Both the position numbers and the translations under genes were made by a program. A DNA stretch of 64,000 nt from Escherichia coli (GTDB lineage Bacteria > Pseudomonadota > Gammaproteobacteria > Enterobacterales > Enterobacteriaceae): assembly GCF_003334385.1 (NCBI RefSeq), contig NZ_QOWN01000007.1; one strand, written 5' to 3'. Below, in pieces: positions 10,317 through 40,415 of this stretch (positions within the stretch are counted from its first letter, which is position 1; every line of letters begins with the position of its first letter). The notes under the pieces were generated by a model. It did not search any database. It saw nothing but the letters and a program-made list of their open reading frames with translations, and was not told the DNA's origin.

Positions 10317-11401
10317 TACTGGCGGCCCTCATAGTTCTGTTCAATCCACGATTGATAGGCACCACTTTTCACATTCTCGACCCATTTTGCATTAGCCAGG
10401 TACCATTCCACCGTTTTACGAATCCCACTCTCAAACGTTTCCTGCGGTTTCCAGCCCAATTCGCGGCTAATCTTCTCTGCATCAATCGCATAACGGCGAT
10501 CGTGTCCCGGGCGATCGGCAACATAAGTAATTTGCTCGCGGTAAGATTTCTCTTTCGGTACAATCTCATCCAACAAATCACAAATAGTGAGCACTACATC
10601 GATGTTTTTCTTTTCGTTGTGTCCACCAATGTTATAAGTTTCACCCGCTTTACCTTCAGTAACGACTGTATATAACGCTCGAGCATGATCCTCGACATAC
10701 AACCAATCGCGAATTTGATCCCCTTTACCATAAATAGGTAATGCTTTACCTTCCAGAGCATTCAGAATAACCAATGGAATCAATTTTTCCGGGAAATGAT
10801 AAGGACCATAATTGTTAGAGCAGTTAGTCACAATGGTCGGTAAACCATAGGTTCGTTTCCACGCGCGGACTAAATGATCGCTTGATGCTTTCGAAGCAGA
10901 ATATGGGCTACTTGGTGCGTAAGCTGTTGTCTCAGTAAATAAGGGTAATTCTTCTTTATTATTTACTTCGTCAGGATGAGGCAGATCGCCATAAACTTCG
11001 TCAGTAGAAATATGATGAAAACGGAAGCTATTTTTCTTGTCGCCATCAAGAGCAGACCAGTAATTGCGAGCCGCTTCCAAAAGGACATAAGTACCAACAA
11101 TATTGGTTTCAATAAATGCCGCAGGGCCTGTAATTGAACGATCCACATGGCTTTCAGCAGCCAAGTGCATCACTGCATCCGGCTGATGCTGAGCAAAAAT
11201 CCGTGCCATTGCAGCAGCATCGCAAATATCCGCATGTTCAAAAACATAGCGTTCAGAGTCAGAAACATCAGCAAGTGATTCCAGGTTTCCGGCGTACGTT
11301 AATTTATCGACATTAACAACACTATCCTGAGTATTATTTATAATGTGACGAACTACAGCAGAACCAATAAATCCTGCGCCACCAGTAACAAGTATTTTCA
11401 C
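10316..11401 (-). CDS. rmlB: dTDP-glucose 4,6-dehydratase
   Basis: 361 aa; [43 protein letters not shown] with a YxxxK active-site region ([10 protein letters not shown]); first gene of the O-antigen operon on the minus strand. Confidence 0.95.
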
Positions 11402-12841: not shown

Positions 12842-14236
12842 CTACTCCCTCCGTTCCGGCAATCTAAAGTTAATCTTTTCCACATTAACAATATGGTGAT
12901 TTATCCTGTCGATATCGACGGAGCTTTGCCCTTTTTCATTCACCGCATGAACATTTGCAAGTGACAGCAGTGTTTCTTTTTTCGCCATAAAGACGCCGCG
13001 AACGTCTTTGCGCATGTCGAAGTTCATGCTCAATGCTGGTCCAACTGAGGATTCCTGCATCACCTTGATATTTCGCATAAAAAGATGTTGCGGTTTGTTG
13101 TGTAACTCCAGCGACGCACGCTTCATCTCAATGTTAGTCAGCGCCACAAAGGAGACAGCATTCCCGGCAGAGATTTGGATACCGCGCAATTTATAAGCAA
13201 GATGGGTGTTATCCATTTGAATATTATTCACTCGGAAATTTTGCGGTATCGAGAGATATTTGCCTTTAATTACCCCATAGCCGATTAACATCCCAGCGCT
13301 ATTAATCATTTCAATATTATCAATCACGAAATTGTCACAACCGTAAATAGCGACCGTCGCGTTATCAATACCTGCTTTCTTACTGAAATCCGGCGTGATA
13401 TTGCGGGCTTTGATATTACGAATAACAAAATGTTTACCATTTTCAACATGGATCAACTGCCGACAATCCGATCCCGTGATATTCGCCACGACAAAGTTTT
13501 TCACTGCCTGGTCTTCCGGGTAGTTATTATCATAAGTACTCCCCGCAAGGCCTATGCCGATGCCCCAGTTGATTTTGCCGTTAGTACAGTTGATGCGCTC
13601 GATGACATGGTCAGATATCAAAATATCATGGTCGTTAATCGCCACGTTCCATTCAATAGCGTCCCCCTGTAAGTCGCTGAACTTACAATTGGTGATGTTG
13701 GCACCGATAATCTGGTTATGAAATCCCTGGCGTAAGATGGCGTAATTAGCGTGGCTAACGGTGAGGTTATCGATGATCAGGTTGCGCATGACCCGTTTGT
13801 TTTTGCCACCAATATAAATCTGCGTTACCGGGCCAAAGCCGCTCATCGCCAGCCCTTTGATGGTGCAGTCAGAGCCGCGCACATCCAGGGTGATGTTATG
13901 CATACTGCCGCCCTTCTCCCCTGTCACCTGGCTGCCGTCCTGTAAGACAAATCGCCCTCTGCCGTTGCCGCGCAGGCTTCCAAGGATGTGTAACGTTTTG
14001 CCAGGAGGAATGAAGATGCCGGTGTTGATATTGTCACAAACGAATCCAGCAGGCACGACGACCGTTTGCCCTTCGCTGAAGGCTTGTTTAAATGAGGCGA
14101 TCCAGTCGTGAGGGGTGTAGTCGTTAATGTTAACGCTTTGTCGGGCGGGAAGCGCGCGGGCGAAAGGGGTATGGAGGAAGGCAAGCGCGGAGCTTGCCGT
14201 CAGGAAGGTGCGTCGGGAGAGTTTTTTAAATGGCAT
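12842..14236 (-). CDS. wcaM: Colanic acid biosynthesis protein WcaM (predicted beta-helix, Tat-type signal peptide)
   Basis: 464 aa; [29 protein letters not shown]-terminus with a twin-arginine motif; last gene of the colanic acid operon, adjacent to galF. Confidence 0.9.
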
Positions 14237-14246
14237 ACGTTCTCCT

Positions 14247-15467
14247 CTATAAAGCTTGCAGCAAGCTGGCGAGTTCTCGATTGATCACCTGCTGGTTAAA
14301 ATCGTGTTCGACTTTTTCGCGAGCACGTTTGACGACAGGAGCCAGTTCGTCGGTGTCCAGTTGGCTAAACGCCGCCAGTCGTTGCGCCAATGCGCGAGCA
14401 TCGTTCTCAGGCACCAGCCAGCCGGATTTATCGGCCTCCACCAGTTCCGGTATTCCACTATGCAGAGTAGAAACCACCGGAATGCCGACCGCCATCGCTT
14501 CCATTAGCGCCACCGGAATACCTTCCATATCGCCGTCCGCACCCGTTACCGAAGGCAGCAGGAAGACATCCGCGTCGTCGAGCATCGCTTTCACTTCATG
14601 GCTCGGTTTAAAACCCGGCATCTCCACCACATCTTCCAGTTGATATTGTTCGATAAGCGTGCGCAGGCGTCGTTCCCACGGGCCAATGCCGAGAATGCGA
14701 TAGCGAAATGCCACGCCCTGCTCTTTCAACTGACGGCAGGCTTCAATCGCCACATGCAGACCTTTTTTCTCGGTTAAGCGTGCGACGGAAATGATTTCCA
14801 GCGGCGTTGCAGGCGCTTTCACCGGACGCGGGCTAAAGCGCGTCATGTCCACACCCATACGCGATACGGCAATTTTTTCCCTCGGGCAGCCCATTTTTTG
14901 CAGCCTTCCGGCCCACAAATCGCTTATCGGTAACATCAGATCGCCACGGCGAAACAGTTGCTGATATTCGGGAGTGTAATGGTTGAGCACTTCCCGACTG
15001 GAAATATCAATGCCGTGGAAAATAGTGGCAATTTTGCCGCGAATGACACCCAGTTCGCGTAGTTTTGCTGCGGTTACCCCCGCAGGGCCAAAATGAGCGA
15101 TGAACACATCGGCGCGAAACGGTGTTGCGACCTGACCACAAATGGCAGACAAAATCAGGTTCCGCGACTCGGCACCATAGCGTTTGAGGTTGAGCGCCTG
15201 CCAGGTATTTTTACGATGAATGCCGCGTAAGGTCTGGCTGGCGCGGTGGCGCAGTTTCGCAACTTTGCCTTGTGGTTCGTCCTGTAACCAGCGGGTTCTG
15301 GCAGCAAGGTTGTATTTCGTCCATGCCGCGTGGGTGTTCTGGGTGTCGCCTTTTTGCAGCGCGACAATCTCCACCTCAAAGCCCATATCAATAAACGCGG
15401 TAATTTGATTGAGGACGAAGGTTTCCGAAGACAGCGGAAATTTCAGTAAAAAGAAGCCGACCTTCAT
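14247..15467 (-). CDS. wcaL: Colanic acid biosynthesis glycosyltransferase WcaL (GT4)
   Basis: 406 aa; [22 protein letters not shown]... position and length match WcaL; start overlaps the wcaK stop. Confidence 0.9.
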
Positions 15468-38561: not shown

Positions 38562-40415
38562 CTACATCTTCTCCAGCAACTTCTTCACATCTTTGCCATT
38601 GCGGGAATCTTTATTCCGCTCGGCCCAGTCATTCAGGCGACGTTTCGCTTCGTCCTGTAGATGTTTGCGCAGTAACTGATCCACTTGCAGACTGTAATTG
38701 AGTTGCTGCCAGTTGCCATAAACCCGCAGCGGTACTGGCGTTTCTTTGAGGAAATCAATCAGTTTGCTTTCCCCGTTCCAGCCACCCACGACCCGAATAT
38801 CAAACTGGGTGTCGCAGGTTTGATCTGCCAGATTCAACATGCCTTCCCCTGTCAGCGCCAGCACAGGCGATTGACCTTGCATGTCGTTTAACGTCACGAC
38901 GCCATCCTTCAACGTCAAATCGGTGGTAAAGCGGTCAAGACGCGTTACGTTATCGAAGTTTTCAGCGGCCTTCACATCACCACCATTACGTTCTACCGCT
39001 TGCTGAATCATCTGCTGGAAGTTCATCCCTTCCATGCGCGTGTCGGTCATTTCGACATGTGCCTGTCCTTGCCAGTTGTGGCGGAATGCGTCGGCATCTA
39101 TGTCAGCACCGGAGAAATCACCAGCCAGTGACATTTTTCCGGTCAACGAAATCGGATAGTTAAACGCCTTCAGAATGGTACCAATCTCAACGTTTTCCAG
39201 CCGTGGCTGGAAGTTTATCCGCGGATTTACTGATGTCGCGTCCAGCGTGCCCGGCAGTGAAACCTGTCCACCGTTAAGTTTGCCCTGCAACTGGATAATC
39301 TCCAGCAAACCCGACTTGTTGGTCATTTGCGTGGCAACATCTGTAAAATTCATTCCGCGCCAGCGCACGTTACTGGCCTGCAACAAAATATCAGCCGTAA
39401 AGCCTTGCAGTCCCTGATATGCCGGTTCATCAATACGCGAAGAAATGACCGGGCGCGGCAATGTTGATTGGCTCTGCCCCTGCTGCGCGGCACCGTTTTC
39501 ACCATTCGCTGTTTCATTAAGCGGGATGAGGTTGTCAAGATTCAGTTGCGGGAATTGCAGTCTCAGCTGCCATTCAGGTTTCTCTGTCAGCGTGACCTGT
39601 GCTTGCCCGCTCAGCGTGCTGTCATTGGCGGTCAAGCTGATTTGGTTAAATGAAAGGCGTTTATGTGACTCCTGCCACTGGGCCTGGAAACTCCCCTGCC
39701 CCTGAATACCTTGTTTTGGTAAATCTGCACCCTGCAACTGCCAGTTAATTTGTTCAATAGCCGCCGTTAAATCATGCGGATAATCAGAAGCATCTACCGT
39801 ACCGTTAAGGGATATCGTGAGATCGCGCTGATCGCGATTAACCCGCCCGGAGAACTCAAATGAACCACGATGTTGGGGATCTTGTTCCATTTGCAGGCGA
39901 ATATTGCGGATTGTCACCTGCTCGTCATCTTCATGCTGGAACACCAGCACGCTGTCCGCCACCTTAAGACTGGATATATCAAACGACCATCCGCGATCGT
40001 CTGACAGATCCGGCAAGGTATTGTCGCGCGGTGCAACCGGAGCGTCTTCACTGCGCACCGCTTCCGTCTGCGGCGTCAGTTGAATCACTGCCCCTTTTAG
40101 CATCACCTGCTTAACGCTCAGTTGATGACTCAGTAGTGGTAAAAGCGCCACGTCCAGACGCATGTTGTCGGCGCGAACCAGTGGCTGGCTTGCGCCCTGG
40201 GCGGTGAGAGACATTCGCCCGGAGAGGATACTAAGCTGCGGCCAGACGTGCCAACGCAGTGGCCCGTCGAGCTGCAATTGATAACCGCTACGTGCAGCAA
40301 CTTGCTTGACCATATAGTCGCGGAAATCATTCGGATTCACCAGCAACACTAACGCAGATAACCCGGCCACCAGCACGACCAGGAGTATCATCAGCGTCGT
40401 CAGAAATCGTCTCAT
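38562..40415 (-). CDS. asmA: Outer membrane assembly protein AsmA
   Basis: 617 aa; MRRFLTTLMILLVVLVAGLSALVLLVNPNDFRDYMVKQVAARSGYQLQLDGPLRWHVWP is the AsmA N-terminal anchor and repeat region. Confidence 0.9.
   Translation of the reverse strand: MRRFLTTLMILLVVLVAGLSALVLLVNPNDFRDYMVKQVAARSGYQLQLDGPLRWHVWPQLSILSGRMSLTAQGASQPLVRADNMRLDVALLPLLSHQLSVKQVMLKGAVIQLTPQTEAVRSEDAPVAPRDNTLPDLSDDRGWSFDISSLKVADSVLVFQHEDDEQVTIRNIRLQMEQDPQHRGSFEFSGRVNRDQRDLTISLNGTVDASDYPHDLTAAIEQINWQLQGADLPKQGIQGQGSFQAQWQESHKRLSFNQISLTANDSTLSGQAQVTLTEKPEWQLRLQFPQLNLDNLIPLNETANGENGAAQQGQSQSTLPRPVISSRIDEPAYQGLQGFTADILLQASNVRWRGMNFTDVATQMTNKSGLLEIIQLQGKLNGGQVSLPGTLDATSVNPRINFQPRLENVEIGTILKAFNYPISLTGKMSLAGDFSGADIDADAFRHNWQGQAHVEMTDTRMEGMNFQQMIQQAVERNGGDVKAAENFDNVTRLDRFTTDLTLKDGVVTLNDMQGQSPVLALTGEGMLNLADQTCDTQFDIRVVGGWNGESKLIDFLKETPVPLRVYGNWQQLNYSLQVDQLLRKHLQDEAKRRLNDWAERNKDSRNGKDVKKLLEKM

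What the first reader, a model, noticed from the sequence alone, without database searches (positions are those of the whole stretch)
12842..14236. WcaM carries a twin-arginine (Tat) signal peptide
The N-terminus [28 protein letters not shown] has a consensus S-R-R-x-F-L Tat motif followed by a hydrophobic h-region and an A-x-A cleavage site. This predicts that the last colanic acid operon product is exported folded to the periplasm. Its role in colanic acid synthesis is poorly defined as far as I know, and a folded periplasmic beta-helix protein would fit a glycan-modifying function.
Basis: partly seen in the sequence, partly recalled or inferred. Interest (0 to 1): 0.2.

Follow-up and report, generated by a model that had tools for sequence, protein, structure and literature searches.

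The report
WcaM's known Tat export signal
The last gene of the E. coli colanic acid (slime) operon, wcaM, does carry a twin-arginine export signal, but this is already in the literature; the more useful result is that the exported protein closely resembles the phage enzymes that cut colanic acid.

Summary
Window 12842..14236 (minus strand) encodes the 464-aa WcaM, the last colanic acid gene before galF. Its N-terminus is [28 protein letters not shown], with SRRTFL, a weakly hydrophobic core and ARA at 26-28.

The motif is not a chance match. R8 and R9 are invariant in 118 aligned sequences, the query plus 117 orthologues, while the flanking residues vary. Distant cellular relatives (about 22-41% identity) mostly carry twin-arginine signals too.

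It is not new. The identical 28-aa peptide is tabulated as a TatP-predicted Tat signal (PMC7549933). WcaM appears in published E. coli and Salmonella Tat-substrate lists, and "ssWcaM" is used as a standard Tat signal.

Beyond the finding, the mature protein models confidently (pLDDT 93) as a right-handed beta-helix. Its only close solved relative is the colanidase tailspike gp150 of phage Phi92 (TM 0.79). It matches PHROG 6117 "colanic acid degradation" (E 1e-52). It shares the motifs GDxIExN, NWGIGIG and RQxxHxE with the characterised NST1 colanidase.

WcaM is therefore most likely a Tat-exported periplasmic glycanase acting on the cell's own colanic acid. That function is inferred, not shown. 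I found no paper stating it in the library I could search.

Interest is low for the finding as written and moderate for the functional lead.

The parts
12842..14236 (-). wcaM coding sequence (464 codons plus stop), the last gene of the colanic acid cluster
   Evidence: ORF listing. NCBIfam WcaM equivalogs NF007517 and TIGR04004 score above their cutoffs. RefSeq annotates the 99.9%-identical region as wcaM.
14242..14247 (-). Ribosome-binding site GAGGAG, 5 nt upstream of the ATG, overlapping the wcaL stop codon TAG (14247-14249)
   Evidence: Read from the sequence. There is no other start codon in the first 50 codons.
14153..14236 (-). Signal peptide, residues 1-28 ([28 protein letters not shown]): n-region 1-9, h-region about 10-25, c-region 26-28
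   Evidence: Residues 1-28 are exactly the segment with pLDDT below 50 in the AlphaFold2 model. The identical peptide is tabulated as a Tat signal in PMC7549933.
14201..14218 (-). Twin-arginine motif S7-R8-R9-T10-F11-L12
   Evidence: The codons TCC CGA CGC ACC TTC CTG were read. In the 118-sequence alignment R8 and R9 are 100% conserved and F11 97%.
14153..14161 (-). A26-R27-A28: predicted signal peptidase I site (cleavage after A28, mature N-terminus LPARQ...), with a basic residue at -2
   Evidence: The codons GCC CGC GCG were read. A28 is 99% conserved and R27 60%. The c-region basic residue is counted.
12845..14152 (-). Mature WcaM (residues 29-464): single-domain right-handed parallel beta-helix
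   Evidence: AlphaFold2 gives pLDDT 93 and pTM 0.90, with strands throughout residues 32-455. The top Foldseek hit is the 6e0v_A colanidase tailspike, with E 6.8e-17 and TM 0.79.
13313..13777 (-). Conserved core (residues 154-308) shared with phage colanidases. It holds the candidate catalytic residues D192, E195, H263 and E265, plus N197, W224, G225 and Q260.
   Evidence: phmmer against PDB 6e0v gives E 1.5e-24 over residues 163-348. BLASTP against the NST1 colanic acid-degrading protein gives 35% identity and E 1e-12 over residues 154-308. Invariant and near-invariant columns come from the 61-sequence alignment A1. These residues are 100% conserved in the orthologue alignment.

Best explanation
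wcaM encodes a precursor with a genuine, cleavable twin-arginine (Tat/SPase I) signal peptide at residues 1-28.

Proposed mechanism:
1. The protein folds in the cytoplasm into a right-handed beta-helix.
2. TatABC recognises it through S-R-R-T-F-L and moves it across the inner membrane in the folded state.
3. Signal peptidase I cuts after A-R-A (28|29), releasing the protein into the periplasm.
4. There it most likely acts as a glycanase (colanidase-type hydrolase) on the cell's own colanic acid. Candidate catalytic residues are the acidic cluster D192/E195/E265, with H263.

Its role would be chain trimming or release, or clearing polymer that goes astray in the periplasm. That is the role played by the periplasmic glycanases encoded in other exopolysaccharide operons.

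Shown here: the ORF, the motif and its conservation, the fold, and the homology to phage colanidases.
Taken from the literature: the Tat-substrate status.
Inferred: folded export of the native protein, the cleavage position, enzymatic activity and the physiological role.

My confidence is about 0.9 for the Tat signal and about 0.55 for the glycanase function. The figure given below is a blend of the two.
For: Signal features:
- Exact sequence and start codon.
- Matches the TatP regular expression RR.[FGAVML][LITMVF].
- The peak 12-residue Kyte-Doolittle hydrophobicity is 1.62. Fifteen accepted E. coli Tat signals average 1.72 +/- 0.19 and ten classical Sec signals average 2.42 +/- 0.32.
- Arg lies at -2 of the AxA site. 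A basic c-region is a known Sec-avoidance feature (established knowledge).
- No lipobox.

Conservation:
- R8 and R9 are invariant in the 118-sequence alignment despite a fast-evolving signal region.
- 11 of about 17 full-length short cellular relatives, at about 22-41% identity, also have twin-arginine N-termini.
- The three cellular relatives examined (P0123, P0132, P0184) sit next to glycosyltransferases and, in two of them (P0123, P0132), WcaD-type polymerases.

Literature:
- The identical peptide is listed as TatP-predicted (PMC7549933).
- WcaM is in Tat-substrate tables (PMC3027627; PMC8262268).
- It is used as a Tat substrate or signal (PMC9604234; PMC6965018).

Fold:
- pLDDT 93, with residues 1-28 disordered and the rest a beta-helix.

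Function:
- PDB 6e0v, Phi92 gp150 colanidase: sequence E 1.5e-24; Foldseek E 6.8e-17, TM 0.79, rmsd 3.2 A. The next-best hit is only 1e-5 with TM about 0.4.
- phrog_6117 'colanic acid degradation', E 1.2e-52 over residues 86-460.
- 255 phage records hold a homologue, mostly annotated as colanidase tailspike or colanic acid degradation.
- 35% identity and shared motifs with the NST1 colanic acid-degrading protein. PMC4179555 calls that enzyme a well-characterised colanidase.
- D192, E195, H263 and E265 are conserved across cellular and phage members.
Against: - Generic Tat-signal profile HMMs do not reach threshold. Pfam PF10518 gives 11.7 bits (E 0.27). TIGR01409 gives 13.4-14.8 bits against a cutoff of 16.7. 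However, five of nine accepted E. coli Tat signals (AmiA, AmiC, FhuD, YcbK, EfeO) give no TIGR01409 hit at all in the same run, so this miss carries little weight.
- The consensus Lys after F-L is a Thr here.
- I could not read the primary reporter-fusion study. One paper calls these substrates 'experimentally verified' (PMC8262268) and another, from the same group, calls them 'predicted' (PMC9604234).
- A few distant family members appear to have Sec or lipoprotein signals (P0189, P0203, P0230), so the fold does not strictly require Tat.
- No biochemical activity of WcaM is reported in the searchable library.
- Salmonella delta-wcaM strains are used as 'colanic acid-deficient' (PMC8171120). 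That fits a biosynthetic requirement at least as well as a purely degradative role.
- WcaM lacks the N-terminal adaptor and the C-terminal extension of the trimeric tailspikes. If the phage active site needs a trimer, a monomeric WcaM might be inactive. This was not testable here.
Confidence: 0.8

Rival explanations
1. The signal is functionally promiscuous or mainly a Sec signal. WcaM would reach the periplasm unfolded through SecYEG, and the RR pair would be incidental or only partly used.
For: - Tat-signal HMMs are below threshold.
- The literature notes that several E. coli Tat signals (AmiA, AmiC, SufI) can use Sec with reporters (PMC8262268, citing Tullman-Ercek 2007).
- Some distant family members carry Sec-like or lipoprotein-like N-termini.
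Against: - The h-region hydrophobicity of 1.62 lies in the Tat range and more than 2 SD below the Sec sample.
- There is a basic residue in the c-region and another at +4 of the mature protein.
- RR is invariant in the 118-sequence alignment and recurs in relatives at about 30% identity, while the neighbouring residues drift.
- TatP classifies the identical peptide as Tat (PMC7549933).
Confidence: 0.1
2. WcaM is exported by Tat but is not an enzyme. It would be a colanic-acid-binding beta-helix that acts as a periplasmic scaffold or chaperone for polymerisation and export with WcaD, Wzc and Wza.
For: - It is named and used as a 'biosynthesis' gene, and Salmonella delta-wcaM is treated as colanic acid-deficient (PMC8171120).
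- No activity has been reported.
- It lacks the tailspike trimerisation parts.
- From established knowledge, periplasmic beta-helix proteins such as AlgG also have structural roles.
Against: The acidic and histidine residues shared with phage colanidases (D192, E195, H263, E265) and the surrounding motifs are 100% conserved in the orthologue alignment. They are retained in the characterised NST1 enzyme and in Phi92 gp150. A mere binding protein would not need to keep them.
Confidence: 0.2
3. WcaM is a periplasmic polysaccharide-modifying enzyme of another kind, such as a lyase, C5-epimerase or esterase, rather than a colanidase-type hydrolase.
For: Foldseek also finds the beta-helix epimerase AlgE4, the polysaccharide lyase RbmB, and GH28 and GH87 enzymes at E about 1e-5. 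A distant member has weak Pect-lyase, Beta_helix and NosD Pfam hits.
Against: Those matches are 12 orders of magnitude weaker, with TM about 0.3-0.45 against 0.79 for the colanidase. Sequence homology is detectable only to colanidase-type proteins.
Confidence: 0.08
4. The motif is a chance resemblance and WcaM stays in the cytoplasm.
For: The short regular expression alone would occur by chance in roughly 1% of N-termini (my own estimate from amino-acid frequencies).
Against: - Full tripartite signal architecture.
- Strict conservation of RR and of the AxA alanine.
- The model's disordered segment ends exactly at the predicted cleavage site.
- Consistent listing as a Tat substrate.
Confidence: 0.02

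Closest known systems
Accepted E. coli Tat signal peptides without a redox cofactor (SufI/FtsP, CueO, AmiA, AmiC, FhuD, MepK/YcbK, MdoD)
   Same: An S/T-R-R-x-F-L type motif at the n/h boundary, a weakly hydrophobic h-region, an AxA site and a length of 26-34 aa. WcaM is listed alongside them in the same tables.
   Different: Thr replaces the consensus Lys after F-L. The TIGR01409 score of 14.8 bits is below the cutoff, whereas SufI, CueO, MdoD and HybA score 23-26. It is still better than AmiA, AmiC, FhuD, YcbK and EfeO, which give no hit. The passenger is a beta-helix, which to my knowledge none of the other E. coli Tat substrates is.
Phage colanidase tailspikes: Phi92 gp150 (PDB 6E0V/6E0W), the NST1 colanic acid-degrading protein (HM214492), J8-65 tailspike; PHROG 6117
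   Same: A homologous beta-helix catalytic domain. Evidence: sequence E 1.5e-24, Foldseek TM 0.79, phrog_6117 E 1e-52, and 35% identity to NST1 over the core. The motifs GDxIExN, NWGIGIG, RQxxHxE and YGC are shared. The cognate polysaccharide, colanic acid, is the same.
   Different: WcaM is chromosomal and sits inside the biosynthesis operon. It has a Tat signal in place of the virion-attachment N-domain and lacks the roughly 140-300 extra tailspike residues. Its oligomeric state and activity are unknown.
Periplasmic glycanases encoded within exopolysaccharide operons (AlgL for alginate, BcsZ for cellulose, PslG for Psl, PelA for Pel). Named from established knowledge, not tested here.
   Same: An enzyme predicted to degrade the polymer, encoded in the operon that makes that polymer and located in the periplasm.
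   Different: The folds and families are unrelated. Those systems are synthase-dependent or differ in other ways, and to my knowledge those enzymes use Sec signals. Colanic acid is a Wzy-dependent polymer, and no such self-glycanase is established for it.
PnlH of Dickeya dadantii, a Tat-exported pectin-lyase-like beta-helix protein (recalled from Ferrandez and Condemine 2008; not checked here)
   Same: A right-handed beta-helix carbohydrate-active-like protein carrying a twin-arginine signal in an enterobacterium.
   Different: As I recall, the PnlH signal is not cleaved and anchors the protein to the outer membrane. WcaM has a conserved AxA site (A28 99%) and is predicted to be soluble.

Membership tests
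Twin-arginine (Tat) signal peptides | Consensus S/T-R-R-x-F-L-K motif with both arginines, at the n-region/h-region boundary within about the first 35 residues | tested here: met
   S7-R8-R9-T10-F11-L12 (T13 in place of K). Matches the TatP regular expression. RR is invariant in the 118-sequence alignment.
Twin-arginine (Tat) signal peptides | h-region less hydrophobic than in Sec signals | tested here: met
Twin-arginine (Tat) signal peptides | Signal peptidase I site (AxA) and, often, a basic residue in the c-region (Sec avoidance) | tested here: met
   A26-R27-A28. A28 is 99% conserved and R27 60%. There is no lipobox, and the first Cys is residue 67.
Twin-arginine (Tat) signal peptides | Score above threshold with curated Tat-signal profiles (TIGR01409, Pfam PF10518) | tested here: not met
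   TIGR01409 gives 13.4-14.8 bits against a cutoff of 16.7. PF10518 gives 11.7 bits, E 0.27. This test is weak: five of nine accepted E. coli Tat signals give no TIGR01409 hit in the same run.
Twin-arginine (Tat) signal peptides | Classification as Tat by a dedicated predictor (TatP, TATFIND, SignalP 6) | not testable with these tools
   No predictor is available here. The published TatP 1.0 run lists the identical 28-aa peptide as a Tat signal (PMC7549933).
Twin-arginine (Tat) signal peptides | Export abolished in tat mutants or by an RR-to-KK substitution | not testable with these tools
   This needs an experiment. The literature lists WcaM as a Tat substrate.
WcaM family (NCBIfam NF007517 / TIGR04004; Pfam PF27800) | Full-length match above the curated equivalog cutoff, and location at the end of the colanic acid cluster | tested here: met
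   1025.9 bits against a cutoff of 808, and 974.1 against 794.6. Gene order is wcaK-wcaL-wcaM-galF. Homologues carry PF27800.
Colanidase-type beta-helix glycanases (Phi92 gp150 / NST1 / PHROG 6117) | Significant sequence homology across the catalytic beta-helix | tested here: met
   phrog_6117 gives E 1.2e-52 over residues 86-460. PDB 6e0v gives E 1.5e-24. NST1 gives E 1e-12.
Colanidase-type beta-helix glycanases (Phi92 gp150 / NST1 / PHROG 6117) | The same three-dimensional fold | tested here: met
   The AlphaFold2 model (pLDDT 93) against 6e0v_A gives Foldseek E 6.8e-17, TM 0.79 and rmsd 3.2 A. All other hits are at 1e-5 or weaker.
Colanidase-type beta-helix glycanases (Phi92 gp150 / NST1 / PHROG 6117) | Conserved candidate catalytic residues | tested here: inconclusive
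   D192, E195, H263 and E265 are conserved in WcaM, gp150, NST1 and 61 diverse members. Which residues are catalytic in the phage enzymes is not known to me and could not be looked up.
Colanidase-type beta-helix glycanases (Phi92 gp150 / NST1 / PHROG 6117) | Tailspike architecture (N-terminal virion adaptor, trimer) | tested here: not met
   WcaM has a signal peptide in place of the adaptor and is 464 aa against 600-1000 aa. Oligomeric state was not tested. WcaM is therefore a homologue of the catalytic domain, not a tailspike.
Colanidase-type beta-helix glycanases (Phi92 gp150 / NST1 / PHROG 6117) | Depolymerisation of colanic acid | not testable with these tools
   This needs an enzyme assay. 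No report was found in the searchable library.

The most novel reading that the evidence does not exclude
WcaM is a host-encoded, Tat-exported periplasmic colanidase. It would be an active glycanase that cuts the cell's own colanic acid, controlling chain length, releasing the polymer as free slime, or clearing polymer stranded in the periplasm. It would belong to the same enzyme lineage that enterobacterial phages use as colanidase tailspikes. That would assign a function to the one gene of the colanic acid operon for which I found no assigned role. It would also make colanic acid a Wzy-dependent polymer with a dedicated self-glycanase.
Probability: 0.5. Interest if true: 0.45.

Novelty: already known. 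Interest (0 to 1): 0.12.

Why it matters
The finding as written adds nothing new, because WcaM has been on E. coli and Salmonella Tat-substrate lists for years.

What could matter is the follow-on. WcaM is the one colanic acid operon product to which the operon summary I read assigns no role (PMC9143390).

The evidence here points to one specific, cheap experiment. Purify the mature protein, add colanic acid, and repeat with point mutants of D192, E195 and E265.

If WcaM is active, three things would follow:
- The operon map would be complete.
- It would explain why a Tat-dependent protein sits in a slime operon.
- It would link host polysaccharide processing to the origin of phage depolymerases.

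It would also clean up inconsistent phage annotation, where the same domain is called 'colanic acid biosynthesis protein', 'colanic acid degradation' or 'hypothetical'.

Tried and rejected
- **Lipoprotein signal.** Rejected. There is no Cys before residue 67 and no lipobox.
- **Alternative downstream start that would remove the signal.** Rejected. There is no ATG, GTG or TTG in codons 2-50, and a strong RBS precedes codon 1.
- **Pfam-A scan of the whole protein.** It gave only a weak TAT_signal hit (E 0.27) and no domain. The Pfam copy used evidently predates PF27800 'WcaM', which appears in precomputed annotations.
- **TIGR01409 as a Tat test.** The score was sub-threshold. I calibrated it on nine accepted E. 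coli Tat signals and found it misses five of them, so I set it aside as uninformative.
- **Primary papers.** I tried to read Tullman-Ercek et al. 2007 (PMID 17218314, PMC2730154) and Schwarzer et al. 2012 on phage Phi92 (I guessed PMC3457257). None is held.
- **Literature searches for a published WcaM function.** I searched 'WcaM' with 'colanic acid', with 'depolymerase', and alone up to 2014, plus 'colanidase'. None returned a paper assigning a WcaM activity. A phage paper only mentions a 'wcaM superfamily protein'.
- **Promoter and terminator scan of the wcaM region.** Nothing above the shuffle expectation.
- **Spatial clustering of the conserved residues in the model.** Not possible, because model coordinates are not exposed to the scripting tool. 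I inferred only that they lie on three successive rungs (strands 194-197, 226-231 and 260-265).
Full report

Yes. The window holds a 464-codon ORF at 12842..14236 on the minus strand. Its product begins [33 protein letters not shown].

- Reading the DNA directly, the codons TCC CGA CGC ACC TTC CTG (14201..14218) give S-R-R-T-F-L. GCC CGC GCG (14153..14161) gives A-R-A.
- The ATG at 14234..14236 is the only possible start in the first 50 codons. A GAGGAG ribosome-binding site lies 5 nt upstream and overlaps the TAG stop of the preceding gene.
- The protein is WcaM. NCBIfam equivalogs NF007517 (1025.9 bits, cutoff 808) and TIGR04004 (974 bits, cutoff 794.6) match end to end.
- The neighbours are WcaK, WcaL and, downstream, GalF.
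- The region is 99.9% identical to E. coli chromosomes where RefSeq annotates the same genes. A homologous region is found in 4642 of 5426 complete E. coli genomes.

**2. Is it more than chance?**

The short motif alone is weak evidence, but its conservation is not.

- In an alignment of 118 sequences (the query plus 117 orthologues from Escherichia, Citrobacter, Salmonella, Enterobacter, Kosakonia, Leclercia and others), R8 and R9 are 100% conserved, F11 97% and A28 99%.
- The positions around them are only 32-74% conserved. The signal region as a whole evolves faster than the mature protein (mean top-residue frequency 0.67 against 0.86).
- 119 of 120 listed homologues match the TatP regular expression. 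The exception is a 761-aa WcaJ-WcaM fusion or misassembly.
- At greater distance (about 22-41% identity), 11 of about 17 full-length short cellular relatives again begin with a twin-arginine signal.
- The three cellular relatives whose contigs I could inspect lie next to glycosyltransferases. Two of them also sit beside WcaD-type polymerases, and one is in a colanic-acid-like cluster.
- Within the window, only one other ORF of at least 100 aa has the motif followed by an uncharged stretch. It is an RR at positions 2-3 before a very hydrophobic anchor, which is not Tat-like.

**3. Does it look like Tat rather than Sec or lipoprotein?**

- The peak 12-residue hydrophobicity is 1.62. Fifteen accepted E. 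coli Tat signals (taken from Table 2 of PMC7549933) average 1.72 +/- 0.19.
- There is an Arg at -2 of the cleavage site and another at +4 of the mature protein. From established knowledge, basic charge there disfavours Sec.
- There is no lipobox, and the first Cys is residue 67.
- The AlphaFold2 model has pLDDT below 50 for exactly residues 1-28 and above 90 from about residue 31. This agrees with cleavage after A28.

One test was not met. The generic profile HMMs fall short: Pfam TAT_signal gives 11.7 bits (E 0.27), and TIGR01409 gives 13.4-14.8 bits against a cutoff of 16.7. I calibrated this on accepted signals. SufI, CueO, MdoD and HybA pass with 23-26 bits. AmiA, AmiC, FhuD, YcbK and EfeO give no hit at all. 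The miss therefore says little.

**4. Is it new?**

No.

- The identical 28-residue peptide is printed as the TatP 1.0-predicted Tat signal of WcaM in ExPEC strain PCN033. That study also made and tested a delta-wcaM mutant, which showed no significant competitive defect (PMC7549933).
- WcaM (b2043 / STM2099) is in the Tat-substrate comparison table of PMC3027627 and in the substrate table of PMC8262268.
- It was cloned as one of 'several Tat substrates' in PMC9604234.
- 'ssWcaM' is used as a standard non-chaperone-binding Tat signal in PMC6965018.
- These papers cite Tullman-Ercek et al. 2007 for the systematic reporter-fusion test of E. coli Tat signals. I could not open that paper, so I cannot quote its result for WcaM.
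- PMC8262268 calls the Salmonella set 'experimentally verified', while PMC9604234 calls it 'predicted'.

**5. What is the exported protein?**

- With a 61-sequence alignment, AlphaFold2 gives a confident model (pLDDT 93.0, pTM 0.90). It is a single right-handed beta-helix from about residue 31 to 455.
- Against the PDB, the top Foldseek match is the colanidase tailspike gp150 of phage Phi92 (6e0v_A): E 6.8e-17, query TM-score 0.79, rmsd 3.2 A.
- Every other hit is at E of 1e-5 or weaker with TM about 0.3-0.5. These include the Sf6, HK620 and P22 tailspikes, AlgE4 epimerase, GH28 and GH87 enzymes and the RbmB lyase.
- Plain sequence search finds the same single PDB relative, with E 1.5e-24 over residues 163-348.
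- WcaM matches PHROG 6117 'colanic acid degradation' at E 1.2e-52 over residues 86-460.
- tblastn finds homologues in 255 phage records. Most are annotated as colanidase tailspike or colanic acid-degrading protein, though some are labelled 'colanic acid biosynthesis protein' or 'hypothetical'.
- The hits include the NST1 colanic acid-degrading protein (HM214492) and the J8-65 tailspike. PMC4179555 describes the NST1 enzyme as a well-characterised colanidase.
- WcaM and NST1 share 35% identity over residues 154-308 (E 1e-12). The motifs QGDxIExNV, NWGIGIGxAG, RQxxHxE and YGC are aligned.
- Across 61 diverse cellular and phage members, G225, H263 and E265 are invariant. D192, E195, N197, W224 and Q260 are at least 90% conserved. 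All are 100% conserved in the orthologue alignment.
- These residues lie on three successive rungs of the helix (strands 194-197, 226-231 and 260-265). That is the usual layout of a beta-helix glycanase active-site groove. The spatial arrangement is my inference, because I could not measure distances.
- The long relatives (600-1000 aa) carry phage tail-fibre N-terminal domains in place of a signal peptide.

**6. How it most likely works**

Shown here:
- a conserved twin-arginine signal directly abuts a compact beta-helix domain;
- that domain is homologous to phage enzymes that depolymerise colanic acid.

From the literature:
- WcaM is treated as a Tat substrate.

Inferred:
- The protein folds in the cytoplasm, is exported folded by TatABC, and is cleaved after A28.
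- It then acts in the periplasm as a glycanase on colanic acid, using D192, E195 and E265 (with H263).

Plausible roles are trimming or releasing the polymer, or removing polymer that accumulates in the periplasm. This would parallel the periplasmic glycanases of other exopolysaccharide operons (AlgL, BcsZ, PslG, PelA; established knowledge, not tested here).

Five cysteines (67, 124, 217, 258, 300) are invariant in the orthologue alignment. Folding before exposure to the oxidising periplasm is one possible reason for using Tat, but that is speculation.

I put about 0.9 on the Tat signal being genuine and about 0.55 on the glycanase function.

**7. Rivals**

- **Sec or dual-pathway use (about 0.1).** Disfavoured by the hydrophobicity, the charge pattern and the deep conservation of RR.
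- **Non-catalytic scaffold or binding protein (about 0.2).** Consistent with Salmonella delta-wcaM being used as a colanic acid-deficient strain (PMC8171120) and with the absence of any reported activity. It does not explain the retention of the acidic and histidine residues shared with the phage enzymes.
- **Another enzyme type, such as lyase or epimerase (about 0.08).** Supported only by far weaker structural matches.
- **Chance motif (about 0.02).**

**8. Comparison with known systems, and verdict**

- As a signal peptide, this is an ordinary, already catalogued member of the E. coli Tat signal set.
- As a protein, WcaM is a member of the WcaM family (PF27800, TIGR04004).
- It is a homologue of the catalytic domain of phage colanidases, but it is not a tailspike: it has no adaptor domain, and its trimer status is unknown.
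- The homology is implicit in phage annotation and in PHROG 6117. In the searchable library I found no paper stating or testing that WcaM itself is a periplasmic colanidase. One recent summary of the operon assigns roles to all the other products and none to WcaM (PMC9143390).

The finding as written is correct and already known, so its interest is low (0.12). The functional lead is a modest but directly testable hypothesis.

Noticed in passing
window 57198..60246 (+): The gene in the mdtC position is split into two overlapping ORFs in different frames: 57198..57689 (163 aa) and 57652..60246 (864 aa). They lie between an mdtB-sized ORF (54075..57197, 1040 aa) and an mdtD-sized ORF (60247..61662). 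This suggests a frameshift, which could be a pseudogene or a sequencing error.
   Followed up: partly
window 38562..40415 (-): A 617-aa ORF starts MRRFLTTLMILLVVLVAGLSALVLLV. It matches the TatP regular expression followed by an uncharged stretch. However, the RR is at positions 2-3 and the 19-residue segment is very hydrophobic, so it looks like a Sec/SRP signal-anchor. It is a false-positive example for motif-only Tat calls.
   Followed up: no
window about 1..11400 (-), downstream of galF; locus L001 1..1642: In the nearest complete genome (E. coli MSI001), the O-antigen region next to galF starts with a UDP-GlcNAc 4,6-dehydratase and a LegC-family aminotransferase. That points to an O-antigen containing a nonulosonic acid (legionaminic or pseudaminic type).
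   Followed up: no
phage records H11-H100 (e.g. PP777464.1, MW822008.1, LT603033.1): The same WcaM-like domain is annotated inconsistently in phage genomes: 'colanidase tailspike', 'colanic acid degradation', 'colanic acid biosynthesis protein', 'lateral tail fiber protein' or 'hypothetical protein'. Records labelled Campylobacter and Acinetobacter phages carry copies that look identical to those of Escherichia phages, which suggests mislabelled hosts.
   Followed up: no
proteins P0126, P0128, P0131: Tailspike-architecture relatives (683-807 aa) are 36-40% identical to E. coli WcaM. That is closer than many cellular, Tat-bearing family members from other environments (about 22-33%). This hints at relatively recent exchange of the catalytic domain between enterobacteria and their phages.
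   Followed up: partly
locus L002 10001..11344 (GCA_000737915.1): A 41%-identical WcaM homologue with a Tat signal lies on the opposite strand, between gnd and a wcaJ-like gene. The cluster is colanic-acid-like or capsule-like, with a WcaD polymerase, a pyruvyl transferase and GDP-fucose genes. The WcaM family is therefore not restricted to the canonical operon position.
   Followed up: no
protein P0086: A 761-aa database protein joins WcaJ-type domains (PF13727, PF02397) to a 95%-identical WcaM region. It is probably an assembly or gene-calling artefact. It was the only homologue lacking the N-terminal RR motif.
   Followed up: no
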